19,979 nt of DNA from the UHGV virus genome UHGV-0128318; one strand, 5' to 3'. Positions 1 through 19,979 of the stretch are shown piece after piece. The stretch comes from a virus. A program made the translations under genes and the position numbers. The notes under the pieces are model-generated. The model searched no databases, had not been told where the DNA came from, and saw only the letters and a list, made by a program, of their open reading frames with translations. How positions within the stretch are numbered: position 1 is the first letter of the stretch; each line of letters opens with the position of its first letter.

Positions 1-1
1 T

Positions 2-1732
2 ACAGCCAACACATTCAATGCCTATATGAGCAGGGCCAGAAAACGGTTTGATGATAAACTTCATCATAGCTTTGAAAAAAATATACATCGCCTATCTGAA
101 AAGTATCCTTTATATAATGAGGAGCTATTGTCATGGCTTTCTCTACCTGCTGCCGATATTCGCCAGAGAATGTCAGCTTTACAGGCAAAATTAAAATTAA
201 TTCTCCCTCTATCAGAAGATTTATCTAATATCAGAATTGGCGATAACAAAAGTCATAACAAGTTATTGAAATTATCAAATAAATATAAAGAGTGGCAATT
301 CGCCATTTCTGATTTAACTAGCGATAACTGGAAAGATAAGCGCGATTATTTATATAAATTACTACAGCAAGGATCTGCCTTACTTGAGGAGTTGAATCAG
401 CTAAAAGTTAACCATGAGATTCTCTATCATCTTCAACTAAGCCCTGCCGAACGTGCATCTATCCAGCAACGATGGGCGGACGTTCTGCACAATAAAAAAC
501 GTAACGTGGTGGTCATTGATTACCCTAAATATATGCAAGCTATTTACGATATTATAAATAGCCCTGCTACATTAAATAATCTAAACACTCGTTCAGGTAT
601 GGCTCCTTTGGCATTTGCACTTGCTGCATTGTCAGGAAGACGAATGATTGAGATTATGTATCAAGGTACATTTACTGTTTCTGGTAAGTATACCGTTGAT
701 TTTTTAGGCCAAGCTAAAAAAAGAACTTCTGATGATATAACCAGAAAAATATATACATTATGCGAAGCAAAAACATTTGTTTATTTAATAAATGTACTTC
801 GCTCATGCCCAGCAGCATCTGATTTTGATGATGTCGTTAAAGGTTATGGAGATAACGACACACGCTCTGAAAACGGACGTATTAATGCCATATTAGCAAA
901 GGCTTTTAACCCGTGGGTTAAATCATTTTTCAAAGATGACCGCCGTGTTTATAAAGATAGTCGTGCTATTTATGCCCGTATTGCGTATGAAATGTTTTTC
1001 CGCGTAGATCCTCGTTGGAAAAACGTAGATGAAGATGTTTTCTTTATGGAAATTTTAGGCCATGACGATGAAAACACTCAATTACACTATAAGCAATTCA
1101 AGCTGGCCAACTTCTCAAAGACATGGAGGCCAAATACTGGAAACGAAAATACCAGGCTGGAAGCATTGCAGCAGCTTGATGACGAAATGCCTGGATTCGC
1201 CAGAGGAGATGCCGGGATTCGTCTGCATAACACAGTTAAGCAGCTGGTAGAGCAGGACCCCTCTATAAAAATCACGAACAGCACTCTAAGAGCGTTCAAA
1301 TTTAGCCCAACAATGATTAGTCGATACCTGGAATTTGCTGCTGATGCTCTGGGGCAATTTGTTGGCGAAAACGGACAATGGCAACTGAAAATAGATACTC
1401 CAGAAATCGTTATGCCTGACGAAGAAGAACTGGAAGCAATACCTGAACTGGCGGATGAATTATCAGAGGATGACGATCTGGATGACGACGAAATTGAGAT
1501 AGAGGAAGAGGAGGAGGAAGAGGAAGAGGAAGAGGAAGAGAGCGTAGAAGAACAGCAACCGCCTGCACCTTCTTCGCCTGTATCTAAGCCGGTATTTAAG
1601 CCGGTGAGAAATATTGGTGATGGCTCATACGTTGTTGAGTTTCATTATAATGGCCAGAATTATGCGTGGTCCGGCAGTGCAAACAGCCCCATGTCAGCAA
1701 TGCAGTTAGCATGGCTGACATATTTCGGTTAA
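2..1732 (+). CDS. telN: Protelomerase (telomere resolvase) TelN-like, 5'-truncated by the window edge. The frame is open from position 2 (TANTFNAYMSRARKRFDDKL...) and carries the tyrosine-recombinase-like catalytic region (...DSRAIYARIAYEMFF...) plus an acidic poly-Glu C-terminal tract.
   Basis: Translation matches my recollection of N15 TelN / phiKO2 TelK over most of its length. The ORF-track start at 26 is an internal Met; there is no stop upstream in frame. Position matches N15 synteny (telN ... repA-cB-cro). Confidence 0.9.
   Translation, partial: TANTFNAYMSRARKRFDDKLHHSFEKNIHRLSEKYPLYNEELLSWLSLPAADIRQRMSALQAKLKLILPLSEDLSNIRIGDNKSHNKLLKLSNKYKEWQFAISDLTSDNWKDKRDYLYKLLQQGSALLEELNQLKVNHEILYHLQLSPAERASIQQRWADVLHNKKRNVVVIDYPKYMQAIYDIINSPATLNNLNTRSGMAPLAFALAALSGRRMIEIMYQGTFTVSGKYTVDFLGQAKKRTSDDITRKIYTLCEAKTFVYLINVLRSCPAASDFDDVVKGYGDNDTRSENGRINAILAKAFNPWVKSFFKDDRRVYKDSRAIYARIAYEMFFRVDPRWKNVDEDVFFMEILGHDDENTQLHYKQFKLANFSKTWRPNTGNENTRLEALQQLDDEMPGFARGDAGIRLHNTVKQLVEQDPSIKITNSTLRAFKFSPTMISRYLEFAADALGQFVGENGQWQLKIDTPEIVMPDEEELEAIPELADELSEDDDLDDDEIEIEEEEEEEEEEEEESVEEQQPPAPSSPVSKPVFKPVRNIGDGSYVVEFHYNGQNYAWSGSANSPMSAMQLAWLTYFG
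1502..1550 (+). repeat. Uninterrupted GAG/GAA codon run encoding about 13 consecutive Glu inside telN
   Basis: Direct reading: gaggaagaggaggaggaagaggaagaggaagaggaagag. Confidence 0.9.
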
Positions 1733-1743
1733 AGCATACAGTA

Positions 1744-1767
1744 AAGGCACCGAATTAACGGTGCCTT
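1744..1767. terminator. 9-bp stem hairpin (aaggcaccg-aattaa-cggtgcctt) between convergent telN and the antirepressor operon; possible terminator but with a weak U-tract
   Basis: Perfect inverted repeat seen in sequence, followed by gttgtgtg on the + strand; further short hairpins at about 1788-1807 and 1874-1890. Confidence 0.3.
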
Positions 1768-1903
1768 GTTGTGTGACCTACCTCGCCTGCCCCCTGCAAA
1801 GGGCAGAAGTAACGGAGGAAACGCGGCTGCAACCACAGACATCACCGCCCCGACTGCGAGGCTTCCCTTCTCTAAGAAGGGCATAAATTCGGGCTGGTCA
1901 ACC

Positions 1904-2677
1904 CTATTTATTGGTGATTTCTGCTGGCTTTAGCTGCGCGGATAACTGCTCAAGTTTTTGAACTGCCAGTTCAAAATGCGCGGGTAACGCCTTTTCCAGA
2001 TCAGAGTTAATATCGGTGATGGGTAAATCACCACACGACATACTCCGCCTACCCCCACGAACAACATCACGCAACAACTCTCGTTCATACGTGCGCATGT
2101 TCCCCAATGCCGACTCAGCAGCCGTCAAAATCCGGCGCAGTTCTGCCGTAATTGCTGGCAAATCATCAACCGTTATGGGGTTCGGGGATGGATTACGACA
2201 CGCCCGACGCAAAGCTAACCATACACCGCTAATCCAGGCATTTCGGTACTGAAAACTTTGTGCTATATCGTTAATCAGCCCTCGCAGATACTCTTTCTGC
2301 CTCCAGTTCAACGGCTCCGCTGCTCGCATTGGCTCAGGCTCGATGTAAACGTACTCTCCATTTTTACGAATAGAGGGCAAGACTTCGTTCGTTACCCATT
2401 TGCGAAACCGCCAAGCTGTTGTGCCTTGCTTCACCGCGTCACGGCAGCGGAGAATGAGCGTGTAAAGACCTGATTCACTGATGATATTGGCTTGACCTTG
2501 ACGGCCTATGTTAAACATAGATCGCTCATCTTCATCTAATCGAGCGATAGCTTGTGTGACATTCTGGATGCTTAAAGCATTGCAAATATCATTCGCCACA
2601 AACCACGGATCGCCGTTAATCATCACTACACGTACCTGATGCTCTTCCTGAAAGGAAAAGACTGCTAACGCGCTCAT
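1904..2677 (-). CDS. Bro-N domain antirepressor (AntB-like), 257 aa
   Basis: N-terminus FSFQEEHQVRVVMINGDPWFVANDICNALSIQN...ISESGLYTLILRCRD...WVTNEVLPSIRKNGEYV is a typical Bro-N signature. Its ATG overlaps the stop of the upstream ORF (ATGA coupling). Confidence 0.75.
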   Translation of the reverse strand: MSALAVFSFQEEHQVRVVMINGDPWFVANDICNALSIQNVTQAIARLDEDERSMFNIGRQGQANIISESGLYTLILRCRDAVKQGTTAWRFRKWVTNEVLPSIRKNGEYVYIEPEPMRAAEPLNWRQKEYLRGLINDIAQSFQYRNAWISGVWLALRRACRNPSPNPITVDDLPAITAELRRILTAAESALGNMRTYERELLRDVVRGGRRSMSCGDLPITDINSDLEKALPAHFELAVQKLEQLSAQLKPAEITNK

Positions 2678-2907
2678 TCAGCCTCCTTACCGTGCAGCAA
2701 TTGCGACGAGAGCGATGCTGAATATCCCTGTGCTTCGTGTGTTAACTCACACGCAATTTGAAGGAGTTTCCCTGCTTCTGAGAGATAAATCGACGCCTCA
2801 CAGCTGGAGACTGTCCGATGGGCTGATGATACGAGCGCATAGACCTGAGCCAGACGTTCATCCAACGATTCCAGCAGGCCAACAGTGTTCATTTTTACCT
2901 GATTCAT
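2674..2907 (-). CDS. Small protein (77 aa) in the antA position of a P1/N15-type icd-ant operon
   Basis: ORF translationally coupled on both sides (ATGA overlaps with icd-like stop and with the Bro-N gene start); no recognisable domain. Confidence 0.45.
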   Translation of the reverse strand: MNQVKMNTVGLLESLDERLAQVYALVSSAHRTVSSCEASIYLSEAGKLLQIACELTHEAQGYSASLSSQLLHGKEAE

Positions 2908-3068
2908 GCAGCCACCTCGCGCACCGGAATACGGGCAGACAATACCAGGACAAACCGGCTGGCGAACTGGCGACGAGCTTCCCGTTCAGATGACGCGATG
3001 GTGGAAAGATGATGGATGTGTGACTTTTTGTCTGTGCGAACGACTGCCGCAAATTTGAATTTGAACAT
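2904..3068 (-). CDS. icd: Icd/Ash-like small protein (54 aa: MFKFKFAAVVRTDKKSHIHHLSTIASSEREARRQFASRFVLVLSARIPVREVAA). It is absent from the ORF track (shorter than the track's apparent cutoff) and conflicts with the spurious track ORF 2858..3052.
   Basis: ATG at 3068-3066 preceded by GGAG at about 8 nt; stop overlaps the next gene's ATG. The FKFAA...RRTD...EARRQ...ARIPV pattern resembles Icd/Ash-family proteins of P1/P4-type immunity operons (from memory, unverified). Confidence 0.5.
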   Translation of the reverse strand: MFKFKFAAVVRTDKKSHIHHLSTIASSEREARRQFASRFVLVLSARIPVREVAA

Positions 3069-3106: not shown

Positions 3107-3151
3107 GTTCTCACGCTCTTGAATGGTGGTAGCCCAAGCGGGGGTGAGAAT
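3107..3151 (-). promoter_or_regulatory. Leader target elements upstream of the icd-like RBS: a second copy of the 10-mer gttctcacgc (3107-3116, identical to the RNA loop at 3277-3286) and its partial complement gtgagaa (3144-3150)
   Basis: Exact 10-nt direct repeat 170 bp apart plus a 7-nt inverted copy. This allows either an intramolecular hairpin in the mRNA leader or pairing of the upstream small-RNA loop with the leader. Confidence 0.45.
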
Positions 3152-3234
3152 ACCGGCAAACGAAGAAACCGGCCTGACCGAAGTCAGCCCCGCCTGAGCC
3201 ACCATAAATCGGATATGCGCAGGTATATACACAC

Positions 3235-3256
3235 AAAAAAACACGCTGGCGCGTGT
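3235..3256 (-). terminator. Intrinsic terminator on the minus strand (acacgc-gcca-gcgtgt followed by T7), inside the leader of the antirepressor operon
   Basis: 6-bp GC-rich stem, 4-nt loop, immediate run of 7 T on the minus strand. Confidence 0.6.
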
Positions 3257-3309
3257 TGTGCGCTTCGTTTATCCGGGTTCTCACGCCCGGCTGCGGAATT
3301 TGCCGCAGC
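3235..3309 (-). ncRNA. Candidate c4/CA-type small regulatory RNA of about 75 nt: two stem-loops (3291-3308 ctgcgg/ccgcag; 3273-3290 ccggg/cccgg with loop cgugagaa) followed by the terminator
   Basis: Promoter-like TTGACG-18-TAAAGT on the minus strand (3345-3316) placed about 7 nt before the first stem-loop; loop sequence repeated and complemented in the downstream leader. Matches the known architecture of P1 c4 / P4 CI / N15 CA immunity RNAs. Confidence 0.45.
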
Positions 3310-3315
3310 GGAGTA

Positions 3316-3345
3316 ACTTTACCGTTAAAACGACGCACACGTCAA
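3316..3345 (-). promoter_or_regulatory. Putative sigma70 promoter of the anti-immunity operon (TTGACG-18-TAAAGT)
   Basis: Hexamer match and spacing read from the sequence; no other support. Confidence 0.3.
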
Positions 3346-3446: not shown

Positions 3447-3734
3447 TTACGGATTAAGAGAGTGGAAATACCTAACTAACTTACCGGCATCATCACATTT
3501 TTCTTTATCTTCTTCCTTAACATAGCCGCGACAGAAGGCTGAATAAAATTTCGCATTTTCAGAAGCAAAAGCAGCCGTCGAAAGGAGCAGTTCTTTGCAT
3601 GATTCTTTTGATGCAGCATCGGGATTATTTTTACATGCAAGCTCCGCTGATGAGTTAATAACAGAAATGCTATCTTCCTGGGCATAAACCGCAGCAGAAA
3701 AGGCAAAACATAAAACCAAAATAAAACTCTTCAC
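3447..3734 (-). CDS. Small secreted protein, about 95 aa, with a signal peptide (KSFILVLCFAFSAAVYA|QE) and four Cys in the mature part; function unknown
   Basis: GTG start at 3734-3732 with AGGAG at 5-nt spacing (the track's longer start at 3758 lacks an RBS); classic n-h-c signal peptide with AxA site; locally AT-rich. Confidence 0.5.
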   Translation of the reverse strand: MKSFILVLCFAFSAAVYAQEDSISVINSSAELACKNNPDAASKESCKELLLSTAAFASENAKFYSAFCRGYVKEEDKEKCDDAGKLVRYFHSLNP

Positions 3735-3761
3735 TTTATCTCCTGTAACAGTTATCACAAC

Positions 3762-4157
3762 TCAATCAACTTTTTTAGCATCAGCCATACGCTTCAACCA
3801 GTAATCAACAATCGGCTGCTCATCCACAGAATGTTTACCAGGTATAACTCGCCAGCTATCTTGCGAAAATCTGCCGTACTTACGCGGGAATAGGCCTTTC
3901 TTTATCTCCCGCCATGTACTAGGAAAACCATCCACAAAAGTACCAATTAACAGGAGAGGGACAAAAATCAGAGCTACAAACCATCGTGCAAGAAAGTGTT
4001 CAACAACAACATTTTCACCGTTGTAGTAATACGCATACGCATCCAATATGCGAATTTTCCTTACCTTAAAAATAGCCTTATGCTGAGAACGACTTAACTT
4101 GATACGAATGTATCCCTTATCCAAAGGGGATTCGTATTTGTATGATTGAACAGCCAT
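3762..4157 (-). CDS. Single-pass membrane protein, about 131 aa (TM segment FVALIFVPLLLIGTFV); function unknown
   Basis: ATG at 4157-4155 with GGGG at 6-nt spacing; hydrophobic helix in the middle; AT-rich like its downstream neighbour. Confidence 0.5.
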   Translation of the reverse strand: MAVQSYKYESPLDKGYIRIKLSRSQHKAIFKVRKIRILDAYAYYYNGENVVVEHFLARWFVALIFVPLLLIGTFVDGFPSTWREIKKGLFPRKYGRFSQDSWRVIPGKHSVDEQPIVDYWLKRMADAKKVD

Positions 4158-4159
4158 TT

Positions 4160-4486
4160 TTAACCCCACTCACCATCAGCAAACAAAGCGTTATACTCTG
4201 ACAATGGTAGATGGTTGCCCTCGATGTAGAGATTCAGTTCATACTTCGTCTCCGGGTTTTCCTTGTCGGCTCGTTCCCAACGCTCAGCAGCCTCACGCGC
4301 CAATAACTCCACTGCTTTCAGATAATCCTCCGTACGGAACCAGCCAAAGATAAGGCCACGATCTGTTACAGCCCAGGCAACCTTTTTTTCTTCCTCCTGG
4401 ATAGCCTTAATGCGTCGATCGCATTCATCCCGGCAAAACTGCAGCTGACGGTAATCAAGTTTGTCCAAAAATGCAGTAGTAGACAT
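4160..4486 (-). CDS. Hypothetical cytoplasmic protein, 108 aa (MSTTAFLDKLDYRQLQFCRDECDRR...)
   Basis: ATG at 4486 preceded by GGGGAG; the track start at 4564 is an upstream extension without an RBS. Confidence 0.5.
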   Translation of the reverse strand: MSTTAFLDKLDYRQLQFCRDECDRRIKAIQEEEKKVAWAVTDRGLIFGWFRTEDYLKAVELLAREAAERWERADKENPETKYELNLYIEGNHLPLSEYNALFADGEWG

Positions 4487-4490
4487 ATTT

Positions 4491-4589
4491 TTACTCCCCG
4501 TTAACCGAAAAATCACGATAGAAACGTTTCCACATACGATAAGTCTGCGCGAGTTGTTCACCACGAAACATCGCCTTCCTGGCCTTCAT
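4491..4589 (-). CDS. Possible 32-aa micro-ORF (MKARKAMFRGEQLAQTYRMWKRFYRDFSVNGE) between repA and the next gene
   Basis: AAGGAAAA then ATG; its stop overlaps the RBS of the downstream gene. Too short to judge further. Confidence 0.25.
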   Translation of the reverse strand: MKARKAMFRGEQLAQTYRMWKRFYRDFSVNGE

Positions 4590-4674
4590 GTTTTCCTTGT
4601 GAGACTTTCGATCTATGAACCAAAACCATTGCTGGAACACACAAAGCAAGAGACACAAAGATAATATCCACTGA

Positions 4675-7600
4675 TTACCCATAGAAAGCGCCCTGCTCTT
4701 CGTAGCTGCATGGGCTATTCCCGGTAATGTATTCACGTAACCGCCGCAGTTCATTGCTGGATAAGTGATCCATGAACTCTGTGAGGTACAGAGAGGCAAA
4801 CGTCATAGCTATGCTGGCTGATGACCATGATGACATAGTGGCCAGCTCCTCACCGGAAAGCGCACTCATCGCCCAGGACTCAGGTACAACCACTGGCAAC
4901 ACAGCCAAAGCCTCAGAAATTACTGAATGAGGGGCGTTTTGAACCTGCTCGTTTGTGGATCGCGTTTTATCATCCATATATATATTGAGATCCAAATCGC
5001 GATCCATTTCGATGGCGGTCTTCTCGGCTTTACGCGTTTTCAGGGTTAGGCCATCTTTCTGACGCTGAGCAAGAATATCCAGCATAAATGCCGCTGATTC
5101 AGGCTCAACAAAACGCAAGGTTGGACGCTTATCGCCGTCTCTGCCGCGACGTTTACCTGTTTTAAGGCCAAGAGAGTCGCAAATGTTTTTAAACAACGCT
5201 TCCGGCACTTTAGGCTTCCCTTTTGGCGTCATAAAACCACCAATGTGCAGAACGTTATTCAACAGGTCACGGCGTTCGGCTGTCATGAGGTTATCTCGAG
5301 CGAATTTGAGACGCTCCTGAGTCGCCTCGCCGGTCATAGTCTCAGGGTTGATACCGCAGTCGATAAAGTACTGCCGGAGAGTTGCTGATTTAAGCGCATA
5401 GAAACCGCGCGCCCCGACTTCAACAGTAGGAGTAGCTTTTACCTTGTGATCGATTATTCCAGGGAATTTAGTTTTAAAGACATCATCAGCCTGCTCGCGA
5501 GTCATCGCGGTCACTACAAAATATTGCCACTGTCCCGCCTGACGGTATGCGTAGGTAAAATTGATGGCTGCTTCTTCCCGGTCGTAACGACGAGCTGTTA
5601 CCTCATCTAAAAGCATTGTTTCATAGCGGCGAACTTTGTCTCGAGCACCATCGAAATAGAATTTCAGCGTGCCTTCTTCAACCGGTAGTTTCAGTTCGTT
5701 TTCAATATCCCAGCGGACAAGTTTTGCCTGTTCTTCAAGCGTCAGCGCGCGTTTTTTTAGCAGTTCTTCACGCTCTGATTCTTGTGGAGTTTCTGTATTG
5801 AGGTGCAGATCCAGTGTCTGTTCCCACACAATATCCCGCGCTTCTTTACGCAGATCTTTACCGATATCATTCGCAGCATAATCGGTGGCCAGCGGTGATA
5901 CCTTATAACCGTCGCTGTGCATGATGCAGATCATGTTGCTGGCGTAGTCGTTACGCGCAGTCGCTTCAATTGCGGCTGCTTTAATTTTCATCCTGGTAAA
6001 GTCGGTATTGGCCACCCCCATTGATATACGGTCGCCATCGAAAACGACATCCGTAAGTTCACCGTTCATACCTGCGGTAGCAAGCAATGCCTGGGCGAAT
6101 GCTCGTTCTATTTTTTGCGGGTCAGTTTCACGTTTTGCACGAGCTTTATCAAAGCCGATAATAAATTCTTTTGCTGTACGGTCGCGGCGTAGCATTTGCA
6201 CTGCGTCGCTGGGTACAACTTCACCACAGAACATGCCGAAATGACGGTCAAAATGTTTTTGCTCAATCGACACGCCGGATGAAATAGACGGGCTATAAAT
6301 CAGGCCGTCGTATTTTTTGACCATCTTTTTCGGTTGATTGGTAAATGCTTCAACTTCTGGCTCTGGTTTGTTTTTCTGGTTTACACACAGAAATTTCTTA
6401 CCAGGAAAATGCATTCTCAGGGTGGCTGTCACATCTTCTGCAAAGGTGGAGCTGTCGGTGGCCAACATGATTTTTTCGCCATCCGATACAGCTTTCACCA
6501 CCTCGGTCATGATGCGATCTTTTTCTGTATAAAAAACCCGGATTGGCTCACCTGTTTCGCGGTTGCGAACATCAACAGGTAATTCAATTACGTGGATCTG
6601 CAGCCATGCCGGTAAACCTAGTTCTTCACGGCGTTTCATAGCCAGTTCAGCCAGGTCAACCAGTAGATCGTTCGCATCAGCATCCACCATGATTGGGTGT
6701 TGTTCCGTTCTGGCCAGCGCGTCAATTAGCGTATTGAATACAGCAACCGGGTTTTCCATAGCCCGACCGGAAAGAACGGCACGTAGCCCTTGCGTGGCCT
6801 CGTCAAAGCCAAAATAGTCGTGCTGGCGCATCAACGGTTGCCAGCAGTTTTTAACAATCGAGTTTATGCAGATGGTCAGTTTACTGGCGTATGGAGCCAT
6901 TTCCTGATAGCCAGGGTCCTGATAGTGCAGGATATCGGCTTTTACACCTTTTCCTTCTGTCATCATTTCCCACAGGCCACCAATAAGGGAGACACGGTGA
7001 GCAACAGAGATACCACGTTCTGAGCTATGCATTAACGGTCGTAACAATCCAGTAGATTTGCCGGAACCCATACCAGCACGGACGATGACTATCCCCTGTA
7101 GTGATTGCACGTACTTCAGGACATCATCGGTCATTACCGAAGTTTCAAAACGCTTATAGGTGATATGTTGAGGGCGTTTATTGGGATCAGTTATGCGTTC
7201 GCTGAAAGAGCGCGGAGCCTGGGCAATACGGCACTTTTTATTCAGGCGACGGGCAATGTGGTCTTTTACCGTAGCGCGATAGATATTTTCCAGTCCCATT
7301 TCACGCAGAACGATGCAGAACATGTTAAATAAATCTGACGGACTGTTAGGAACCGGGCAGGTTAGCATGCCAATATCCACCGCTCTCAGCAGCTCTTTGG
7401 CAAAAGTACGACGGTTATCCCGCTTAATTGTCTTCAGGCGGTTGAGCGTCAGAGATAGCAAATCAGTGCCAGTTTTCAGGCGGTTTGCAGTTGCAAACAG
7501 TTGACGTGCTGTTTCACGAAGTCCACGTAGTTTGTGCAGGTCGTTGAAGTCACTGCACTCCATTTGCGGATCGTCTTCAAAAGTTGGATAGACGCAGCGG

Positions 7601-8774: not shown

Positions 8775-8787
8775 TTCCTGAAAAGGA

Positions 8788-8815
8788 CCCGAGTTTGCCG
8801 ACTCGGGTTTTTTTT
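8788..8815 (+). terminator. Strong intrinsic terminator on the + strand (cccgagt-ttgccg-actcggg then T8); in the minus orientation the same hairpin is followed by only ccuuuu
   Basis: 7-bp stem and 8 T read directly; there is no + strand gene upstream, so it may end an antisense or leader transcript, or act weakly and bidirectionally after cB. Confidence 0.5.
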
Positions 8816-12974: not shown

Positions 12975-12975
12975 T

Positions 12976-13577: not shown

Positions 13578-13578
13578 T

Positions 13579-14031: not shown

Positions 14032-14046
14032 TTTTCAGGAGGATTT

Positions 14047-14373
14047 ATGGCGCTGACACCGGCAGAACGGCAAAGGAGACGCAGGGAACGGTTGAAGAAG
14101 GAAGGCACATCAAGACGGGACTGGATTCTAGAACCTGACGAGTTACGTATGTTGGGGGAAATTTGTGTATTGCGTAGACCAGGGCGAGTTCCATATTCGG
14201 AGAACGAAGTCATTGGTTTGCTGATCAGGAAAAACTATAAGGAGCTGCAGAAGCAGCTATCTACTACTTGCCCGCGATGTGGTCAAAAAATGCCTGTTTC
14301 AGAATGCATTTTTGATGGCGAAGGGTCATGCCACCTTACAACCACGAGGCTGAAACTTGCGCTCAAAGCGTGA
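14047..14373 (+). CDS. Small basic DNA-binding-like protein with a C-terminal Cys cluster (TPAERQRRRRERLKKEG ... CPRCG ... C), 108 aa
   Basis: ORF with RBS AGGAGG; N-terminal Arg-rich stretch resembles a ribbon-helix-helix or basic DNA-binding region. Confidence 0.45.
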   Translation: MALTPAERQRRRRERLKKEGTSRRDWILEPDELRMLGEICVLRRPGRVPYSENEVIGLLIRKNYKELQKQLSTTCPRCGQKMPVSECIFDGEGSCHLTTTRLKLALKA

Positions 14374-14382
14374 CTGGTCACG
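14369..14382. repeat. Family-2 palindrome cgtgactggtcacg spanning the stop codon of the upstream gene and immediately before the next RBS
   Basis: Perfect 6-bp arms around a 2-bp centre. Confidence 0.6.
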
Positions 14383-14391
14383 GAGGGATAA

Positions 14392-14634
14392 ATGGATAAA
14401 AAGGCATTGCTTTTTGAAATGATACGAAAACGGAGCGAAAAGAGCTTTTCTGATGGTGGTGATGGGTTTGTTTTCGCTTCGATGCTTGCTTTTGATGTTG
14501 GGTTAAATAGCAGAATTGTTAAAAGGATGCTTGATTCTGCTGTCCGTACTGGACTTCTTGAGAAAGTTGATCGTGGCATAGGGAGAGAGCATAAGTATCG
14601 GGCCACACAGCAGTTTACGCAGTTAATTCATTGA
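14392..14634 (+). CDS. Hypothetical small protein, 80 aa
   Basis: ATG with GGAGGG RBS. Confidence 0.45.
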   Translation: MDKKALLFEMIRKRSEKSFSDGGDGFVFASMLAFDVGLNSRIVKRMLDSAVRTGLLEKVDRGIGREHKYRATQQFTQLIH

Positions 14635-14662: not shown

Positions 14663-14678
14663 CTGTAATTTTATACAG
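14663..14678. promoter_or_regulatory. LexA (SOS) box CTGT-aattttat-ACAG overlapping a candidate promoter (TTGAGT-17-TACAGT)
   Basis: Matches the CTGT-N8-ACAG consensus with an AT-rich spacer; the only such site found in the window. Confidence 0.55.
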
Positions 14679-14716
14679 TACAAACAACCTTTTTTAGTTA
14701 AATGGTATGAGATTTA

Positions 14717-14920
14717 ATGTCTGAAGCAGCCGTATCAACTCTTGAACAACTCGATTCAAATTTAAGAGATATTGACGCCATTCTGGATCTGGTTAGCGTC
14801 ACCCTGGCTTCTCCAGAAGCCAGCCTACATATTGGTGAGGTTTCACGACTCATCAACATGTCGCGAGAGATTGCCCAGCATTGTCAGAAAACTATCGCTG
14901 TTGAGCGTTCACATCATTGA
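14717..14920 (+). CDS. Small SOS-controlled protein, 67 aa; candidate LexA-regulated antirepressor (AntC/Tum-like by regulation and position)
   Basis: First ORF downstream of the LexA box; N15 is known to have a LexA-controlled small antirepressor. No sequence-level identification was possible. Confidence 0.4.
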   Translation: MSEAAVSTLEQLDSNLRDIDAILDLVSVTLASPEASLHIGEVSRLINMSREIAQHCQKTIAVERSHH

Positions 14921-15726: not shown

Positions 15727-15948
15727 ATGAATTATCAAGGTAACGAAAAAATGCGCGGCGACGTTGCGGAGATAGCTAACGAACTGTATGAGTTGTGGCA
15801 GAAGGTTGAACGTTTCGAAAAGGAATATGGTTTCAACAGTACCAACCTAACAGACCGACTGGCTGGTCGCTTAGTTGGGACTATGGGGCCAAAACTGGCT
15901 GAGTTGAACAGCTTTATGGCTGATGTTGATTTCCAGTTTCAAGATTGA
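15727..15948 (+). CDS. Hypothetical small protein, 73 aa
   Basis: ATG at 15727 with GGAGG at 8 nt. Confidence 0.45.
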   Translation: MNYQGNEKMRGDVAEIANELYELWQKVERFEKEYGFNSTNLTDRLAGRLVGTMGPKLAELNSFMADVDFQFQD

Positions 15949-15961
15949 TTAGAGAGGCGTT

Positions 15962-16189
15962 ATGAATATTAATGAAATTCGTGGAAATATGACTGAAGCG
16001 GCCCTGAGTGTGGAATGTGTTATGCGTGGATACCCACACATTTCCCTGAAAGAGTTAAGCGAAGCCTGTTTTTTGAGTCAAGCTGCCGTTGAATTTATCA
16101 TCGAACAGATGATCTGTTTTGGGGTTGCAAAGCGTAGCGGATCTGGTCGATATTCTTTGACCGATGAATATAAGCAGGCAACTTTCTAA
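15962..16189 (+). CDS. Hypothetical small protein, 75 aa, possibly winged-helix
   Basis: ORF with RBS GAGAGG. Confidence 0.45.
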   Translation: MNINEIRGNMTEAALSVECVMRGYPHISLKELSEACFLSQAAVEFIIEQMICFGVAKRSGSGRYSLTDEYKQATF

Positions 16190-16193: not shown

Positions 16194-16213
16194 TGTGCGA
16201 CCACGGTCGCACA
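16194..16213. repeat. SopB-type centromere-like palindrome tgtgcgacc-ac-ggtcgcaca (family 1), intergenic
   Basis: 9-bp perfect arms, 5 nt after the stop of the preceding gene. Confidence 0.5.
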
Positions 16214-16298
16214 GCACAAAAACGAAAAAGCTTGGCAAAATGACGGTTTTTAGTTATTGTTTTGTTAAGTTGGGTTTTTTGTACCCAACAGCCAACAA

Positions 16299-16321
16299 GC
16301 CGCCTTTATGGCGGTTTTTTT
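16299..16321 (+). terminator. Intrinsic terminator (gccgcc-tttat-ggcgg then T7)
   Basis: GC stem with a U-tract; preceded by a second hairpin gttgggt-ttttttgt-acccaac. Confidence 0.7.
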
Positions 16322-16408: not shown

Positions 16409-16422
16409 GCGATGCGCATCGC
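16409..16422. promoter_or_regulatory. Perfect 14-bp palindrome gcgatgcgcatcgc overlapping the first in-frame ATG of the methyltransferase ORF
   Basis: Seen directly. Confidence 0.4.
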
Positions 16423-17533
16423 CGGGTTAGCTTACCCAGGCAAAAAAATAATAGCTATGTTCAAAACCACTAATATTCATGGCGCACAACTCGTTTGCGC
16501 AGATTCTCTGCAATTTATCAAAACCATCCCTGATAACTCGGTCAATTTGATTGCAACAGACCCACCATACTTCGGCGTAAAGGCTAACGCATGGGATAAC
16601 CAGTGGGATAGCGATGCTGACTTTTTGGGGTGGATTGACGAATTTTTGGCAGAATTTTGGCGGATATTGGCCCCTAATGGCAGCCTGTATATGTTTACCG
16701 GCTCTCGCCTTGCGTCAAAAATTGAATTATTAACTCGCGACCGTTTCAATGTTCTGAACCATATCATTTGGGCTAAACCCAGTGGTATGTGGCGCGGTTG
16801 TCATAAAGAAAGTTTAAGGGCTTATTTTCCTGCTACTGAAAGAATATTATTTGCAGAGCATTACGGCGCGTCAGGTTATGCTAAAGGTCAGTCAGGTTAT
16901 GCTTCAAAATGTGCAGATTTAAGAAAAAATATTTTTTCTCCACTAATTGATGCTTTTTCGCTGGCTCGCCGTCAGTTAGATATATCAGCCGCAGACATTA
17001 ATTCAGCGACAGGAAAGCAGATGTGTTCACACTGGTTTTCTTATTCGCAGTGGCGGCTTCCATCATTAATTGATTTTAATAAACTATGCGAATTATTTCG
17101 CAGGAAGGCAGATTCACTCGGTGTCCCGTGTCCATATCCTTTTAATGTTGATTATTCAGAACATGAAAAGCGTTATAGCGATCTGAAATTGCATTATGAG
17201 GAAGTAAAGAAGCAGTATGATGATTTGAAGGCTCAGTATGAAAATTTACGCCGTCCATTTCATGTTACTGCTGATGTACCTTATACCGATGTATGGGAGT
17301 TTCCTCCTGTGCAATATTATCCTGGCAAGCACCCATGTGAAAAACCTGCAGCGATGATGGAACATATTATAAAGAGTAGTTCACGCCCCGGAGATATCGT
17401 TGCCGATTTCTTTATGGGATCAGGCTCAACTATTAAAGCTGCGCTGAAGTTAGGACGTCAGGCAATAGGTATTGAGATTGAGGGCGAACGTTATCTTCAG
17501 ACAGTTGATGAAGTGAAAAAGTTATTTGAGTAA
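16412..17533 (+). CDS. Orphan DNA methyltransferase of the N6-adenine/N4-cytosine amino-MTase family (beta-class: DPPY motif N-terminal, FxGxG motif C-terminal)
   Basis: Motifs IATDPPYF and DFFMGSGST; no adjacent restriction endonuclease gene. The true start may be the ATG at 16457 (MFKTTNIHG...). Confidence 0.85.
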   Translation: MRIAGLAYPGKKIIAMFKTTNIHGAQLVCADSLQFIKTIPDNSVNLIATDPPYFGVKANAWDNQWDSDADFLGWIDEFLAEFWRILAPNGSLYMFTGSRLASKIELLTRDRFNVLNHIIWAKPSGMWRGCHKESLRAYFPATERILFAEHYGASGYAKGQSGYASKCADLRKNIFSPLIDAFSLARRQLDISAADINSATGKQMCSHWFSYSQWRLPSLIDFNKLCELFRRKADSLGVPCPYPFNVDYSEHEKRYSDLKLHYEEVKKQYDDLKAQYENLRRPFHVTADVPYTDVWEFPPVQYYPGKHPCEKPAAMMEHIIKSSSRPGDIVADFFMGSGSTIKAALKLGRQAIGIEIEGERYLQTVDEVKKLFE

Positions 17534-17628: not shown

Positions 17629-17901
17629 ATGAAGATGGATGAACGATACAGCAGTGCATCTTATGGTAGCGCCGGTCTTGCTGCGTTCTTTGCCAGCCTG
17701 TCATTGCAGGATTGGGGCTTCATTATCGGTGTCGCGTTCAGCATTATCCTCGGTGTGCTTACATACCGGCTCAATAAACGCGAGCAGATGAAGCGCACGA
17801 AGATATTGCAGGAGATATTGGATAAAACTAATACCAATAATCTTTCTGCTACAGCGATGGTTATTGGAGAGCTGGGGAAGAGAGCACCGAAGGAAATATG
17901 A
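17629..17901 (+). CDS. Class II holin (pinholin-like, two TM segments), 90 aa
   Basis: Two hydrophobic helices followed by a charged C-terminus; immediately upstream of and overlapping the endolysin start. Confidence 0.7.
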
Positions 17902-18398
17902 TGCAGTCATCATTACGCAAAGCTGTTACAGCTGCTATTGGTGGCGGGGCTATTGCCATAGCGTCTATGCTCATCACTGGCCCAAGTGGTAACGATGGTC
18001 TGGAAGGTGTCAGTTACATACCATACAAAGATATTGTTGGCGTATGGACTGTATGTTACGGACACACTGGAAAAGACATCATGCTAGGTAAAACGTATAC
18101 CGAAGCAGAATGCAAAGCTCTCCTGAATAAAGACCTTGCCACTGTCGCCAGACAAATTAACCCGTACATCAAAGTCGATATACCGGAAACAACGCGCGGC
18201 GCTCTTTACTCGTTCGTTTACAACGTGGGCGCTGGTAATTTCAGAACATCGACGCTTCTTCGCAAAATAAACCAGGGCGATATCAAAGGCGCATGTGATC
18301 AGCTACGTCGCTGGATATCTGCTGGCGGTAAGCAATGGAAAGGCCTGATGACTCGTCGTGAGATTGAGCGTGAAGTCTGTTTGTGGGGTCAACAATGA
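17898..18398 (+). CDS. SAR endolysin (phage lysozyme, T4-lysozyme/GH24-like, with N-terminal signal-anchor-release domain)
   Basis: Gly/Ala-rich N-terminal TM ([20 protein letters not shown]) and catalytic region [14 protein letters not shown]; ATGA overlap with the holin. Confidence 0.85.
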
Positions 18399-18862
18399 GC
18401 AGAGTAACCGCAATTATCTCCGCACTGGTTATCTGCATCATCGTCTGCCTGTCGTGGGCTGTTAATCATTACCGTGATAACGCCATCGCCTACAAAGAAC
18501 AGCGTGATAAAAAAGTCAGTGAGCTGAAGCAGGCGACCGCCACCATCGCTGACATGCAGCAGCGTCAGCGTGATGTTGCTGCGCTCGATGCAAAATACAC
18601 GAAGGAGTTGGCTGATGCGAAAGCTGAAAATGATGCTCTTCGGCGCAAGCTTGATAATGGTGGTCGGGTGCTCGTCAAAGGAAAATGCTCTGTGCCATCC
18701 TCAGCCGAAACCTCCAGCGCCTCCGGCATGGGCAATGATGCCACCGTCGAACTCTCTCCAGTTGCTGGACGAAACGTTCTCGGTATCCGGGACGGAATCA
18801 TCAGAGACCAGACAGCACTGAGAACGCTTCAGGAATACATCAAGACGCAATGCCCGAATTAA
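18395..18862 (+). CDS. Rz-like i-spanin (N-terminal TM, coiled-coil periplasmic domain)
   Basis: ATG overlaps the endolysin stop (ATGA); TM segment [14 protein letters not shown]; contains the embedded Rz1 frame. Confidence 0.75.
18615..18821 (+). CDS. Rz1-like o-spanin lipoprotein embedded in the +1 frame of Rz (lipobox ...IMVVGC, Pro-rich mature part)
   Basis: ATG at 18615 with GAAGGAG at 7 nt; signal peptide with lipobox Cys; [10 protein letters not shown] typical of Rz1. Confidence 0.7.
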
Positions 18863-18903: not shown

Positions 18904-19215
18904 ATGAAAATTTATATTGCCGGGCCAATGACTGGATATGAGAACTTTAATCGTGACGCCTTTAATAAAGAGGCAGATCGTTTGTCACGACATGGTCACT
19001 CTGTCTTGAATCCAGCCACTTTGCCTAATGGTCTGACACAACGTGAATACATGGATATTTGCTTTGCAATGCTTCGTTGTGCTGATGCTATTTTGATGCT
19101 TCCTGGCTGGAAAGCGTCTGCTGGAGCAACTGCTGAGTATCATTACGCATACAAGATGGAGATGCCGGTATTCACTACGCTGAATTACCCGCCAGCTTGT
19201 TCCTCTGTAGCATAA
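18904..19215 (+). CDS. DUF4406-like protein (nucleoside 2-deoxyribosyltransferase-like fold), 103 aa
   Basis: MKIYIAGPMTG ... NPA ... CDAILMLPGWKASAGA pattern recalled for this family. Confidence 0.55.
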   Translation: MKIYIAGPMTGYENFNRDAFNKEADRLSRHGHSVLNPATLPNGLTQREYMDICFAMLRCADAILMLPGWKASAGATAEYHYAYKMEMPVFTTLNYPPACSSVA

Positions 19216-19233: not shown

Positions 19234-19253
19234 TGTGCGACCGTGGTCGCACA
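19234..19253. repeat. SopB-type centromere-like palindrome tgtgcgacc-gt-ggtcgcaca (family 1)
   Basis: 9-bp perfect arms. Confidence 0.5.
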
Positions 19254-19453
19254 TTAAATACCGCGCTGCATCGTCGCCGTATTTCCGCATTAACCATGAC
19301 CGTAGCCCGACGGGGAACTCCTCTGCGCGAGTGTGCGGAAATAATCAAAAACGATGCACACCGGGTTTTTACCGCGCTAATGATTCGCGGGTTTGTCCCT
19401 CATGCTCGCCAGTCCTGTGCGAGGGTGGAAGAAACAGGGCATGTATTCAGGAG

Positions 19454-19473
19454 CGTGCGACCGTGGTCGCACG
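19454..19473. repeat. SopB-type centromere-like palindrome cgtgcgacc-gt-ggtcgcacg (family 1)
   Basis: 9-bp perfect arms; 200 bp downstream of the previous copy. Confidence 0.5.
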
Positions 19474-19495
19474 GTATCTTTGTCAGGAGGTTTTG

Positions 19496-19810
19496 ATGAA
19501 AGAGTTGCAAAAAATTAATTCAATAATGGAAAGATTAAGTGCTCTTGAGCGTAAGCTGGACGATTGTGGAAAGCTGTGTGTTGAAAAGCAAAATGAGCTT
19601 TACCGGGAATTTTTTACAATCGTAAGTGAGCTGATGCCAATTGTTAATAACTGCCTGATGACATCCAGATTTTTTAATGTCGATGCTACTACATCCAGAA
19701 AATTTTCTGTGAAAATTCAAGAAAGAGTTTCTGGTAGTGTGACAAGAGAGATGGCTGAACAGTTGGTGGCAATGAGCAATAAAACAAAAAGAAAAAAGCA
19801 TTGCTTGTAA
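19496..19810 (+). CDS. AT-rich moron-like gene, 104 aa, unknown function (N-terminal coiled-coil, basic C-terminus)
   Basis: ATG with AGGAGG at 6 nt; by eye about 35% GC against a roughly 50% GC background; located between the lysis cassette and cos. Confidence 0.5.
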   Translation: MKELQKINSIMERLSALERKLDDCGKLCVEKQNELYREFFTIVSELMPIVNNCLMTSRFFNVDATTSRKFSVKIQERVSGSVTREMAEQLVAMSNKTKRKKHCL

Positions 19811-19843
19811 CAGCAAATCAGCTTTCAGGGCGCGTTGACTTTC

Positions 19844-19979
19844 AGGTGTTGTGATATGCAGATGATAATTATTATCATTTGCGGGTCCTTTCCAGTGATC
19901 CGACAGGTTACGGGGCGTCAGGCGCGCGGGTTTTCGCTATTTATGAAAATTTTCCGGTTTAAGGCGTTTCCGTTCTTCT
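19844..19979 (+). other. Lambda-like cos region: cosQ-like segment, cosN-equivalent 12-mer at 19913-19924 (gggcgtcaggcg), and the start of cosB; the window ends inside cosB
   Basis: Near-identity to the phage lambda genome ends as I recall them: ...gatgataattattatcatttgcgggtcctttcc.gtgatccgacaggttacg upstream and cgcgggttttcgctatttatgaaaattttccggtttaaggcgtttccgttcttct downstream; the 12-mer differs from lambda GGGCGGCGACCT at about 5 positions. Confidence 0.8.

What the first reader, a model, noticed from the sequence alone, without database searches (positions are those of the whole stretch)
1..19979. Window is the telN-to-cos arm of an N15-like linear phage-plasmid
Gene order (5'-truncated protelomerase, anti-immunity operon, repA, cB, cro, Q-like, accessory operon, Gp49-like toxin-antitoxin, methyltransferase, lysis cassette, cos) reproduces the right arm of N15-type linear plasmid prophages. 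The sequence is clearly diverged from N15 itself in the accessory regions and the TelN C-terminus. The telomere resolution site telRL and the sop partition genes must lie outside the window.
Basis: partly seen in the sequence, partly recalled or inferred. Interest (0 to 1): 0.6.

Follow-up and report, generated by a model that had tools for sequence, protein, structure and literature searches.

The report
N15-like linear phage-plasmid arm, known
The window is the telomerase-to-cos half of an N15-type "telomere phage" that lives in E. coli as a linear plasmid; it is real and correctly identified, but near-identical copies are already in the public databases, so it is ordinary.

Summary
The window carries, in N15 order: a 5'-cut protelomerase gene, a P1/N15-type anti-immunity operon, repA, cB/cro/Q with their operators, an accessory operon, a LexA-controlled antC-like gene, a Gp49/HigB-type toxin-antitoxin pair, the late promoter and methyltransferase, a lysis cassette, and a joined lambda-type cos site (cosN 19913-19924).

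Core proteins are 67-91% identical to N15. The window is 97-98% identical to phages PhiR46_1 and YDC107_1. It is 100% identical over 17.9 kb to E. coli plasmid pF16EC0617-5, whose record is an inverted duplication centred on the N15 telO palindrome.

telRL and sopAB are outside the window, as predicted. Five SopB centromere palindromes (GTGCGACCNNGGTCGCAC) are inside it; N15 and phiKO2 have four.

The differences from N15 are ordinary mosaicism:
- a lambdoid lysis and cos module;
- a different exonuclease and ea22-like modules shared with Stx phages;
- a variable repA-to-immA locus;
- a diverged TelN C-terminus.

Novelty: already known. Interest: low.

The parts
2..1732 (+). telN, 5'-truncated by the window edge (C-terminal 576 of ~633 codons). 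Protelomerase with muzzle, catalytic and stirrup domains, an acidic poly-Glu linker and a diverged C-terminal domain.
   Evidence: Pfam PF20849, PF16684 and PF20818. It is 77% identical to N15 TelN, 74% to TelK and 98% to PhiR46_1. The HYKQFKL block is identical in N15 and phiKO2 and conservatively changed in PY54 (AYKQFKL); from memory it holds the catalytic Tyr. The C-terminus is 51-58% identical to N15.
1904..2677 (-). antB-like gene (Bro-N domain), last gene of the anti-immunity (immA) operon.
   Evidence: PF02498 E 9e-21. 73% identical to N15 gp30. In PhiR46_1 only a short remnant is present here.
2674..2907 (-). antA-like antirepressor gene.
   Evidence: phrog_10889 'anti-repressor' and phrog_6301. 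62% identical to N15 gp31.
2904..3068 (-). icd-like cell-division inhibitor gene.
   Evidence: NCBIfam phage_ICD_like, 67 bits against a cut-off of 25. 94% identical to the N15 region.
3122..3209 (-). C4-type antisense RNA, the counterpart of N15 CA RNA and P1 C4. It represses the downstream icd-ant genes.
   Evidence: Rfam RF01695, 82.2 bits against a gathering score of 45, full-length match. The 40-aa 'ash' ORF annotated in relatives overlaps it.
3236..3345 (-). immA leader: promoter-like site (3345-3316), a1/b1 target sequences for the C4 RNA (3322-3270), and an intrinsic terminator (3257-3240).
   Evidence: Rfam c4-a1b1, 48.8 bits against 46.7, and isrK, 68 bits against 50. Promoter-like and terminator-like sites come from the consensus scan.
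3447..4682 (-). Variable locus downstream of repA with four small ORFs: 3447-3734 (Sec signal peptide), 3762-4157 (one TM), 4160-4486 (N15 gp35-like) and 4491-4682 (one TM). It is syntenic with the telocin:immunity locus of Klebsiella telomere phages, but no telocin is present.
   Evidence: Only PHROG families of unknown function match; PADLOC gives nothing. N15 homology exists only for 4160-4486. NAR688 comparison is, and the locus is described in PMC12042878.
4675..8664 (-). repA, the multidomain primase/helicase-type replication initiator. By analogy with N15 it also contains the internal ori, and it contains centromere site IR1.
   Evidence: NCBIfam CyRepA1, 259 bits against a cut-off of 200. 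Weak Toprim_3 and Herpes_ori_bp hits. 75% identical to N15 RepA over 99% of its length. The N15 ori and centromere lie within repA (PMC2847241).
8286..8303 (.). SopB centromere palindrome IR1 (1 mismatch), inside repA.
   Evidence: It sits at the same position as the N15 and phiKO2 sites. The N15 IR1-4 sequences are in PMC7205306 Table 4.
8781..8896 (.). repA-cB intergenic control region: bidirectional terminator 8781-8815 and the OL-equivalent operator region 8858-8896 over the repA promoter.
   Evidence: The terminator is 33/35 identical to the one annotated in N15; the operator region is 28/39 identical.
8910..9506 (-). cB prophage repressor gene.
   Evidence: HTH_3 plus a weak Peptidase_S24 match. 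78% identical to N15 CB.
9529..9593 (.). OR operators between cB and cro (repeats of the TTATAGCTGGCTATAA type).
   Evidence: 54/65 identical to the annotated N15 CB-binding region. A 26-nt tandem repeat was found.
9598..9819 (+). cro gene.
   Evidence: PF14549 P22_Cro E 2.5e-22. 80% identical to N15 Cro. The start is placed at the ATG after the operators.
9809..10519 (+). Q-type late antiterminator gene.
   Evidence: PF06323 E 1e-83. 67% identical to N15 gp40.
10729..10746 (.). SopB centromere palindrome IR2, downstream of Q.
10783..14634 (+). Accessory operon: a small ORF, a DEDDh Rv2179c-like exonuclease (10980-11579), DUF977, DUF4752, four ea22-like mosaic ORFs (12285-14031), a gp46-like regulator and a gp47-like ORF.
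   Evidence: Pfam and PHROG. Positions 10980-14031 have no N15 homolog, and the exonuclease is 61% identical to PY54's. Positions 12642-13729 are absent from PhiR46_1 and YDC107_1; parts of 12600-13760 are 90-93% identical to Stx and lambdoid phages.
14663..14920 (+). LexA box CTGTAATTTTATACAG (14663-14678) followed by the antC-like SOS antirepressor gene (14717-14920).
   Evidence: It is the only perfect CTGT-N8-ACAG in the window. N15 has CTGTGTTTATATACAG at the syntenic place. The protein is 54% identical to the unannotated N15 ORF there and matches anti-repressor PHROGs. N15 AntC is LexA-controlled (PMC3121763, PMC4488713).
14963..15561 (-). Toxin-antitoxin pair: Gp49/HigB-type toxin (15250-15561) upstream of, and overlapping, the HTH antitoxin (14963-15250).
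   Evidence: PF05973 E 3e-29 and HTH_3 E 8e-12. 91% and 85% identical to N15 gp49 and gp48.
15727..16189 (+). gp50- and gp51-like small ORFs.
   Evidence: 82% and 73% identical to N15. PHROG families of unknown function.
16195..16321 (+). SopB centromere palindrome IR3 (16195-16212) immediately upstream of the late promoter (-35 at 16232-16237, -10 at 16255-16260) and its leader terminator (16297-16321), the presumed target of Q.
   Evidence: Alignment to the annotated N15 and phiKO2 late promoter and terminator. Consensus scan. IR site.
16412..17533 (+). DNA N6/N4 methyltransferase (DPPY motif), first late gene, followed by a terminator at 17548-17569.
   Evidence: PF01555 E 1e-46. 84% identical to the N15 ORF. 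Terminator.
17629..18862 (+). Lysis cassette: holin 17629-17901, endolysin 17898-18398, Rz i-spanin 18383-18862, and embedded Rz1 o-spanin 18615-18821 (lipobox VVGC).
   Evidence: Pfam and PHROG. Rz1 ORF. The R-Rz part is 91-95% identical to lambdoid phages. There is no N15 homolog for the holin or Rz, and the endolysin is only 34% identical.
18904..19215 (+). DUF4406 / nucleoside 2-deoxyribosyltransferase-like gene (N15 gp57 homolog).
   Evidence: PF14359 E 4e-34. 84% identical to N15 gp57.
19235..19472 (.). Two perfect SopB centromere palindromes (19235-19252 and 19455-19472). They bracket a segment (19263-19433) that in close relatives is also present just upstream of cos.
   Evidence: N15 and phiKO2 have a single site in this region. 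The second copy of the segment in PhiR46_1 and YDC107_1 is shown.
19496..19810 (+). Remnant of a 286-codon ORF that is intact in PhiR46_1. It carries a 1-nt frameshift, and about 1.38 kb is missing downstream (junction 19848-19855).
   Evidence: phrog_2571 matched over positions 1-102 of 291.
19880..19979 (+). Joined cos site: conserved upstream flank, cosN 12-nt cohesive-end segment GGGCGTCAGGCG (19913-19924), and the start of cosB. The window ends about 200 nt before Nu1.
   Evidence: Sequence. Comparison with N15, PhiR46_1 and YDC107_1. Nu1 follows in the relatives.

Best explanation
The window is about 20 kb of an N15-type temperate 'telomere phage' of E. coli. [quoted passage not shown] The window runs from inside telN, about 375-385 bp from the telL hairpin, to the joined cos site.

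Inferred mechanism, by homology with N15:
- After infection the genome circularises at cos.
- TelN cuts and reseals the telRL palindrome, which lies just outside the window, to give hairpin telomeres.
- RepA starts bidirectional replication from an ori inside its own gene.
- SopAB, encoded at the other end of the replicon, partitions the plasmid by binding the dispersed GTGCGACCNNGGTCGCAC palindromes. Five of these are in the window.
- The Gp49/HigB-type toxin-antitoxin pair adds post-segregational stabilisation.
- CB maintains lysogeny at the OR and OL operators, and also limits repA.
- Lysogeny is lifted in two ways: by the SOS-controlled AntC-like antirepressor, and by the AntA operon, which a C4-type antisense RNA keeps off.
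- Cro and Q then switch on the late promoter upstream of the methyltransferase gene. Transcription reads through the lysis genes and across cos into the lambda-like head and tail genes.

Shown here: sequence homology, synteny, the cis-sites, and the telomere palindrome in near-identical relatives. Inferred: all the activities, and the physical linearity of this particular replicon.
For: - Near-identity to deposited N15-like phages and plasmids. YDC107_1 is classified as Ravinvirus.
- Gene-by-gene homology to N15 and phiKO2, 62-94% for the core genes.
- Domain hits for TelN, RepA, CB, Cro, Q, Icd, Gp49, methyltransferase and the lysis proteins.
- C4 RNA and its a1/b1 targets.
- Operators, late promoter and terminators aligned to the N15 annotation.
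- LexA box at the syntenic antC position.
- Five copies of the palindrome against 0.03 expected by chance. Its core is identical in N15 IR2-IR4 as deposited and in all four IR oligonucleotides of PMC7205306 (the deposited N15 IR1 has one mismatch), and the sites sit at syntenic positions.
- telO palindrome identical to N15's at the centre of the inverted duplication in the 100%-identical plasmid record. telL, telR and ParAB are annotated in PhiR46_1.
- Joined lambda-type cos followed by Nu1 in relatives.
- Experimental roles of the N15 parts come from the literature: PMC2847241, PMC4488713, PMC3121763, PMC7205306 and PMC12624138.
Against: - The window itself holds neither the telomere site, the first ~57 telN codons, sopAB, nor any structural gene. 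Linearity and phage competence of this particular copy are therefore extrapolated from relatives.
- There are signs of local decay next to cos: a frameshifted ORF and a ~1.38 kb deletion.
- Blastn identity to N15 is only ~73% over about two thirds of the window. The lysis and cos module is lambdoid rather than N15-like.
Confidence: 0.95

Rival explanations
1. The window is a defective, plasmid-only derivative of an N15-like element. It still replicates and partitions as a linear plasmid but no longer produces phage.
For: A frameshifted ORF remnant and a ~1.38 kb deletion sit directly upstream of cos. The structural genes are not in the window, so their integrity is unknown.
Against: - All regulatory, replication and lysis genes in the window are intact ORFs.
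- cosN and both of its flanks are intact and conserved.
- The deleted material is accessory: its homolog's length also differs between PhiR46_1 (861 nt) and YDC107_1 (597 nt).
- PhiR46_1, 98% identical, is deposited as a complete phage genome with a named host strain.
Confidence: 0.1
2. The window is part of an integrated, chromosomal lambdoid prophage, or of a circular plasmid, that merely acquired N15-like genes by recombination.
For: Segments of the window are shared at 90-95% with integrated lambdoid and Stx prophages: R, Rz, the cos region and the ea22-like modules. Partial matches occur on nearly all E. coli chromosomes.
Against: - Only 15 of the 5,898 matching E. coli records have a place covering at least 80% of the window. 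Those listed are 36-75 kb; the closest non-E. coli-collection records are plasmids or phages.
- No integrase was found in the window.
- telN, repA, the centromere sites and the immA, immB and antC circuits are all present and syntenic with N15.
- Records labelled circular or larger than 46 kb that were inspected are inverted-duplication assembly artefacts centred on the tel palindrome.
Confidence: 0.03

Closest known systems
Escherichia phages PhiR46_1 (PV340565.1) and YDC107_1 (CP025712.1, Ravinvirus), and E. coli plasmid pF16EC0617-5 (CP088379.1)
   Same: - 97-98% nucleotide identity over ~90% of the window, and 100% over positions 1-17931 for the plasmid.
- Same gene order, the same centromere sites (five in the two phages; the plasmid record ends before the two near cos), the same cos flanks, and a tel palindrome with the N15 telO core.
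   Different: - The window has a full-length Bro-N antB. PhiR46_1 has only a remnant.
- It has a 1.09 kb extra block of ea22-like ORFs (12642-13729).
- It has a ~1.38 kb deletion and a frameshift before cos.
- The 12-nt cohesive end differs: GGGCGTCAGGCG against GGGCGGAAGGCG.
Escherichia phage N15 (NC_001901), prototype linear phage-plasmid
   Same: - Order telN - immA (C4 RNA, icd, antA, antB) - variable ORFs - repA - cB - cro - Q - accessory operon - antC - gp48/49 TA - gp50/51 - late promoter - methyltransferase - lysis - cos.
- Core proteins are 62-94% identical.
- The operators, LexA box, late promoter and IR centromere sites are at the same places.
   Different: - ~73% nucleotide identity over about two thirds of the window.
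- N15 genes 33-34, 36, 41-45, 53, 55, 56, 58 and 59 have no counterpart here.
- The holin, Rz and cos flanks are lambdoid.
- The exonuclease is the Rv2179c/DEDDh type, as in PY54.
- There are five rather than four IR sites.
- The TelN C-terminal ~110 residues are only 51-58% identical.
Klebsiella telomere phages phiKO2 and NAR688
   Same: The same backbone: TelK 74%, RepA 76-85%, CB 77-78%. The partition sites annotated in phiKO2 sit at the same four relative positions.
   Different: NAR688 carries a telocin:immunity cassette between repA and telN (PMC12042878). At that locus the window has small unrelated ORFs (3447-4157) and no bacteriocin-sized gene.
P1 immI / P4-type antisense-RNA-controlled antirepressor operon (C4 RNA - icd - ant)
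   Same: A C4 RNA, its a1/b1 targets, icd and then antirepressor genes, in that order on one strand.
   Different: The antirepressor proteins (AntA/AntB type, with Bro-N) are those of N15, not P1 Ant. The regulation was not tested here.
Phage lambda cos and lysis module
   Same: The sequences flanking cosN are identical to lambda's as I recall them (from memory, not checked against a lambda record here). The lysis genes are of the class II holin / R / Rz-Rz1 type. Nu1-A-W-B head genes follow in relatives.
   Different: The 12-nt cohesive end differs from lambda's GGGCGGCGACCT (from memory) at six positions. The module sits on a linear plasmid prophage rather than an integrated one.

Membership tests
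N15-like telomere phage / linear phage-plasmid | Protelomerase (TelN/TelK family) with an intact catalytic domain | tested here: met
   Pfam muzzle, catalytic and stirrup domains are all above their cut-offs. 77% identical to TelN. The HYKQFKL block and the SGRRMIEI and GQAKKR motifs are identical to N15. The first ~57 codons lie outside the window.
N15-like telomere phage / linear phage-plasmid | telRL palindrome next to telN | not testable with these tools
   It lies outside the window. In the 100%-identical relative and in PhiR46_1 the palindrome, with the N15 telO core CCATTATACGCGCGTATAATGG, lies ~190-200 nt upstream of the telN start.
N15-like telomere phage / linear phage-plasmid | Covalently closed hairpin ends on a linear replicon | not testable with these tools
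   The evidence is only indirect. Relatives are assembled as head-to-head inverted duplications centred on the tel palindrome.
N15-like telomere phage / linear phage-plasmid | Large multidomain RepA replication protein | tested here: met
   1329 aa. NCBIfam CyRepA1, 259 bits against a cut-off of 200. 75% identical to N15 RepA. The internal ori is inferred, not mapped.
N15-like telomere phage / linear phage-plasmid | immB: divergent cB and cro with operators, followed by Q | tested here: met
N15-like telomere phage / linear phage-plasmid | SopAB partition system with dispersed inverted-repeat centromeres | tested here: inconclusive
   The cis-sites are met: five palindromes matching the N15 IR core. 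The sopAB genes are outside the window; they are present next to telR in PhiR46_1.
N15-like telomere phage / linear phage-plasmid | cos site and lambda-like late genes | tested here: met
   cosN and its flanks are at 19880-19979. The structural genes are outside the window (for relatives).
C4-RNA-controlled antirepressor operon (P1 immI / N15 immA) | C4-type RNA with upstream a1/b1 target sequences, followed by icd and ant genes | tested here: met
   RF01695, 82.2 bits against 45, and RF03163, 48.8 bits against 46.7. icd family, 67 bits against 25. Anti-repressor PHROG and Bro-N.
LexA-controlled antirepressor (N15 AntC type) | Small antirepressor gene preceded by an SOS box | tested here: met
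   A perfect CTGT-N8-ACAG lies 39 nt before the start codon. The homologous N15 ORF has its own box at the same place. LexA binding was not tested.
Gp49/HigB-HigA type II toxin-antitoxin | Gp49-family toxin gene directly upstream of an HTH antitoxin gene | tested here: met
   PF05973, 101 bits against 23.9, and HTH_3. The two ORFs overlap by one base (15250). Toxicity was not tested.

The most novel reading that the evidence does not exclude
The small cassette at 3447-4157 encodes a Sec-signal, Cys-containing 95-aa protein and a 131-aa single-pass membrane protein. It lies downstream of repA on the same strand, so it is probably expressed in the lysogen. It occupies the locus where Klebsiella telomere phages carry telocin:immunity pairs. 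It could be an uncharacterised lysogenic-conversion module of E. coli/Shigella telomere phages, for example a periplasmic superinfection-exclusion factor (it is labelled 'Spackle' in PhiR46_1 without support I could verify) or a small toxin/immunity pair.
Probability: 0.15. Interest if true: 0.4.

Novelty: already known. Interest (0 to 1): 0.12.

Why it matters
It matters little for discovery. N15-like telomere phages of E. coli and Shigella are described in the literature (PMC7969092; bioRxiv 10.1101/2025.09.12.675607; PMC12042878). Genomes 97-100% identical to this window are already deposited. Every small ORF I looked up occurs on tens to more than a thousand public contigs.

The practical value is in annotation:
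- The window gives a clean map of the cis-elements that automatic pipelines miss or mislabel: the C4 RNA, the SOS box, five SopB sites, the operators, the late promoter and cosN.
- It shows that several public 'circular' or oversized records of this family are hairpin read-through artefacts.

Tried and rejected
- PADLOC scan of ten accessory proteins: no defence-system hit. The only match was a sub-threshold CasR HTH hit.
- tRNA/tmRNA scan: none.
- Test of the 'Spackle' label on ORF 3447-3734: a PDB sequence search found nothing relevant. The single-sequence AlphaFold2 model had mean pLDDT 55, too poor for a fold search, so none was run. The label remains unverified.
- PDB search for ORF 3762-4157: nothing.
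- Exact-sequence cluster look-up of seven accessory ORFs: all 'hypothetical protein'.
- Literature search for PhiR46_1: no paper held. Mardanov & Ravin 2007 (PMC1951935) is not held, so AntC is cited through secondary papers.
- The generic promoter scan is not enriched over shuffles (26 found against 31 expected). I used it only where it coincides with sites annotated in N15.
- An integrated prophage or circular plasmid was considered and rejected (see rivals).

Full report
**What is there**

The 19,979-bp window is densely coding. Megablast finds it 97.9% identical over 90% of its length to Escherichia phage PhiR46_1, and 96.8% over 89% to phage YDC107_1, which is classified as Ravinvirus. 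Against plasmids, 23 records cover at least 80% of it. One of them, E. coli pF16EC0617-5 (CP088379.1), is 100.0% identical over window positions 1-17931. Among complete E. coli genomes, only 15 records have a place covering at least 80% of the window; those listed are 36-75 kb and match at 96-98% identity. The thousands of chromosomal hits are partial matches.

**Gene content**

I defined 34 ORFs from the ORF list and from the annotation of the identical relative. I compared them by tblastn with N15, phiKO2 and PY54, and with Pfam, PHROG, NCBIfam and PADLOC.

- telN' (2-1732): TelK muzzle, catalytic and stirrup domains; 77% identical to N15 TelN.
- Anti-immunity operon on the minus strand: Bro-N antB (1904-2677), antA (2674-2907), icd (2904-3068).
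- Four small ORFs (3447-4682).
- repA (4675-8664): CyRepA1 family; 75% identical to N15.
- cB (8910-9506), cro (9598-9819), Q (9809-10519).
- Accessory operon (10783-14634).
- antC-like gene (14717-14920).
- Gp49/HigB-type toxin and HTH antitoxin (15561-14963, minus strand): 91% and 85% identical to N15 gp49 and gp48.
- gp50/gp51 homologs.
- N6/N4 methyltransferase (16412-17533).
- Holin, endolysin and Rz, with an embedded Rz1 lipoprotein ORF (17629-18862).
- A DUF4406 gene.
- An ORF remnant.
- cos.

- *C4 RNA.* Rfam finds a full-length C4 antisense RNA at 3122-3209 (-), 82 bits against a gathering score of 45. Its a1/b1 target motif and an isrK-like leader with a terminator lie upstream, at 3236-3322. 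This is the P1 immI / N15 immA design, in which a small processed RNA keeps icd-ant off. The paper describing it for N15 is cited in PMC12042878.
- *LexA box.* The only perfect LexA box in the window, CTGTAATTTTATACAG (14663-14678), lies 39 nt before the antC-like gene. N15 has CTGTGTTTATATACAG at the syntenic position. N15 AntC is the LexA-controlled antirepressor that triggers induction (PMC3121763 and PMC4488713).
- *Operators and promoters.* Four regions align with the features annotated in N15:
  - the cB-cro intergenic operators (9529-9593), 54/65 identical;
  - the OL region over the repA promoter (8858-8896), 28/39 identical;
  - the repA-cB terminator, 33/35 identical;
  - the late promoter, whose -35 hexamer is 6/6 identical, and its terminator (16232-16321).
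- *Centromere sites.* The palindrome GTGCGACCNNGGTCGCAC occurs five times, against 0.03 expected. This is the core of the N15 SopB-binding centromere sites IR1-IR4 as given in PMC7205306 Table 4.
  - Sites 1-3 lie in repA, after Q, and 19 nt before the late -35. These positions match N15 and the 'putative plasmid partitioning sites' annotated in phiKO2.
  - The last two (19235 and 19455) form a pair. N15 and phiKO2 have a single site there.

**Telomere and cos**

The window starts about 182 nt into telN, so telRL cannot be in it.

- In PhiR46_1 the record begins with an annotated telL half-site, telN starts at 203, and window position 1 corresponds to position 385. The record ends ...ParB-ParA-telR.
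- The 100%-identical plasmid record is a 'circular' 36.6-kb head-to-head duplication of this arm. Its centre reads ATCAGCACATAATCCCCCATTATACGCGCGTATAATGGGGGATTATGTGCTGAT. The 22-bp core is identical to N15 telO.
- YDC107_1 shows the same kind of inverted duplication.
- I read these duplications as hairpin read-through assembly artefacts. That makes them indirect evidence for hairpin telomeres in this lineage.

At the other end, cosN is GGGCGTCAGGCG (19913-19924). It sits between flanks identical to those I recall for lambda, and the same flanks occur in PhiR46_1 and YDC107_1. In the relatives Nu1 starts about 200 nt further on. cos is in its joined form and the window runs 55 nt beyond cosN. 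The source is therefore the prophage/plasmid (or circularised) form, not a virion end.

**Divergence from N15**

Blastn identity to N15 is about 73% over about 13.4 kb of the window.

- No N15 homolog exists for 3447-4157, 4491-4682, 10980-14031, the holin, Rz and 19496-19810. The endolysin is only 34% identical.
- The R-Rz genes and the cos region are 91-95% identical to integrated lambdoid phages.
- Parts of the 12600-13760 region, which spans the block at 12642-13729 missing from PhiR46_1 and YDC107_1, are 90-93% identical to Stx-phage 'ea22-like' modules.
- The exonuclease is an Rv2179c-type DEDDh enzyme, 61% identical to PY54's. DEDDh proteins were reported in all N15-like elements in a recent survey (bioRxiv 10.1101/2025.09.12.675607).
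- TelN identity to N15 is 70-100% through the catalytic and stirrup regions, but 51-58% in the acidic linker and last domain. These C-terminal domains are variable and dispensable for telomere protection (PMC12624138).

What it describes is ordinary phage mosaicism.

**Mechanism**

The mechanism follows N15, as given under the best explanation. Homology, synteny and the cis-sites are shown here. The activities, and the linearity of this particular copy, are inferred.

**Rivals**

- *Plasmid-only derivative.* This cannot be excluded from the window. The signs in its favour are a frameshifted ORF and a ~1.38 kb deletion next to cos. Against it, all core genes and cosN are intact.
- *Integrated prophage or circular plasmid.* This is contradicted by telN, repA, the sop sites, the absence of any integrase, and the contexts of every near-full-length relative.

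**Variable locus**

In Klebsiella telomere phages the locus between repA and telN carries telocin:immunity cassettes that are expressed in the lysogen (PMC12042878). In NAR688 the homologs of ORFs 4491-4682 and 4160-4486 are followed by an unrelated 181-aa membrane protein. In the window, the same place holds a 131-aa single-pass membrane protein and a 95-aa Sec-signal protein. There are no PADLOC, Pfam or PDB hits for them. A single-sequence AF2 model was too poor to use, with pLDDT 55. This locus is the only place where something new might hide, and it is widely present in sequenced E. coli and Shigella.

**Verdict**

The element is a member of a known and already-sequenced lineage of N15-like phage-plasmids. 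Novelty: already known. Interest: low.

Noticed in passing
window 8286-8303, 10729-10746, 16195-16212, 19235-19252, 19455-19472: There are five SopB centromere palindromes (GTGCGACCNNGGTCGCAC); N15 and phiKO2 have four. The extra one forms a pair 220 bp apart near cos. The pair brackets a ~170-bp segment (19263-19433) that has a second copy just upstream of cos in PhiR46_1 and YDC107_1. One site lies 19 nt upstream of the late promoter -35.
   Followed up: yes
window 3083-3209 (-): The 40-aa 'ash family protein' ORF annotated in near-identical public records, which hits Pfam Phage_ASH, lies almost entirely inside the C4 antisense RNA gene found by Rfam. It is probably an RNA gene mis-called as protein.
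   Followed up: partly
window 19913-19924: The 12-nt cohesive-end segment differs between close relatives, while both flanks are conserved: window GGGCGTCAGGCG; PhiR46_1 and YDC107_1 GGGCGGAAGGCG; N15 GGGCGGCGTCCG.
   Followed up: partly
window 19496-19855: ORF 19496-19810 is a remnant of a 286-codon gene that is intact in PhiR46_1. It has a 1-nt deletion after an A6 run, and about 1.38 kb is missing at 19848-19855.
   Followed up: yes
L004 (CP088379.1) whole record; L001 (CP025712.1) 1-8700: The public record pF16EC0617-5, labelled circular and 36.6 kb long, is a head-to-head inverted duplication of this arm centred on the tel palindrome. YDC107_1 contains a similar inverted duplication with fragmented telN copies. 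Both look like hairpin read-through assembly artefacts. Several 60-90 kb 'plasmids' of this family may be the same.
   Followed up: partly
window 3447-4157 (-): Two small ORFs occupy the locus that holds telocin:immunity cassettes in Klebsiella telomere phages. One is a 95-aa protein with a Sec signal peptide and four Cys in the mature part; the other is a 131-aa protein with one TM segment. The first is labelled 'Spackle' in PhiR46_1, but I could not verify that label.
   Followed up: partly
L003 (N15 NC_001901) 19343-20476: The annotated start of N15 RefSeq gene 52 (DNA methyltransferase) is 93 codons downstream of the start conserved with the window's gene. The omitted, in-frame part contains the DPPY catalytic motif.
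   Followed up: yes
window 16262-16420 (+): The late-transcript leader folds into three hairpins (z = -4.85 against shuffles). The third (16338-16365) has no T-tract, and it is retained in N15 with substitutions on both arms.
   Followed up: partly
window 1501-1540: A (GAG/GAA)n tract encodes the poly-Glu linker of TelN. It is four codons longer than in PhiR46_1, so it looks like a length-polymorphic low-complexity tract.
   Followed up: partly
window 12642-13729: A 1.09-kb block is absent from PhiR46_1 and YDC107_1. It covers the end of ORF 12285-12974, ORFs 12976-13185 and 13182-13577, and the start of 13579-14031. It is made of ea22-like modules also found in Stx phages. ORFs 13182 and 13579 share the N-terminus MTTIT, which suggests module shuffling.
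   Followed up: partly
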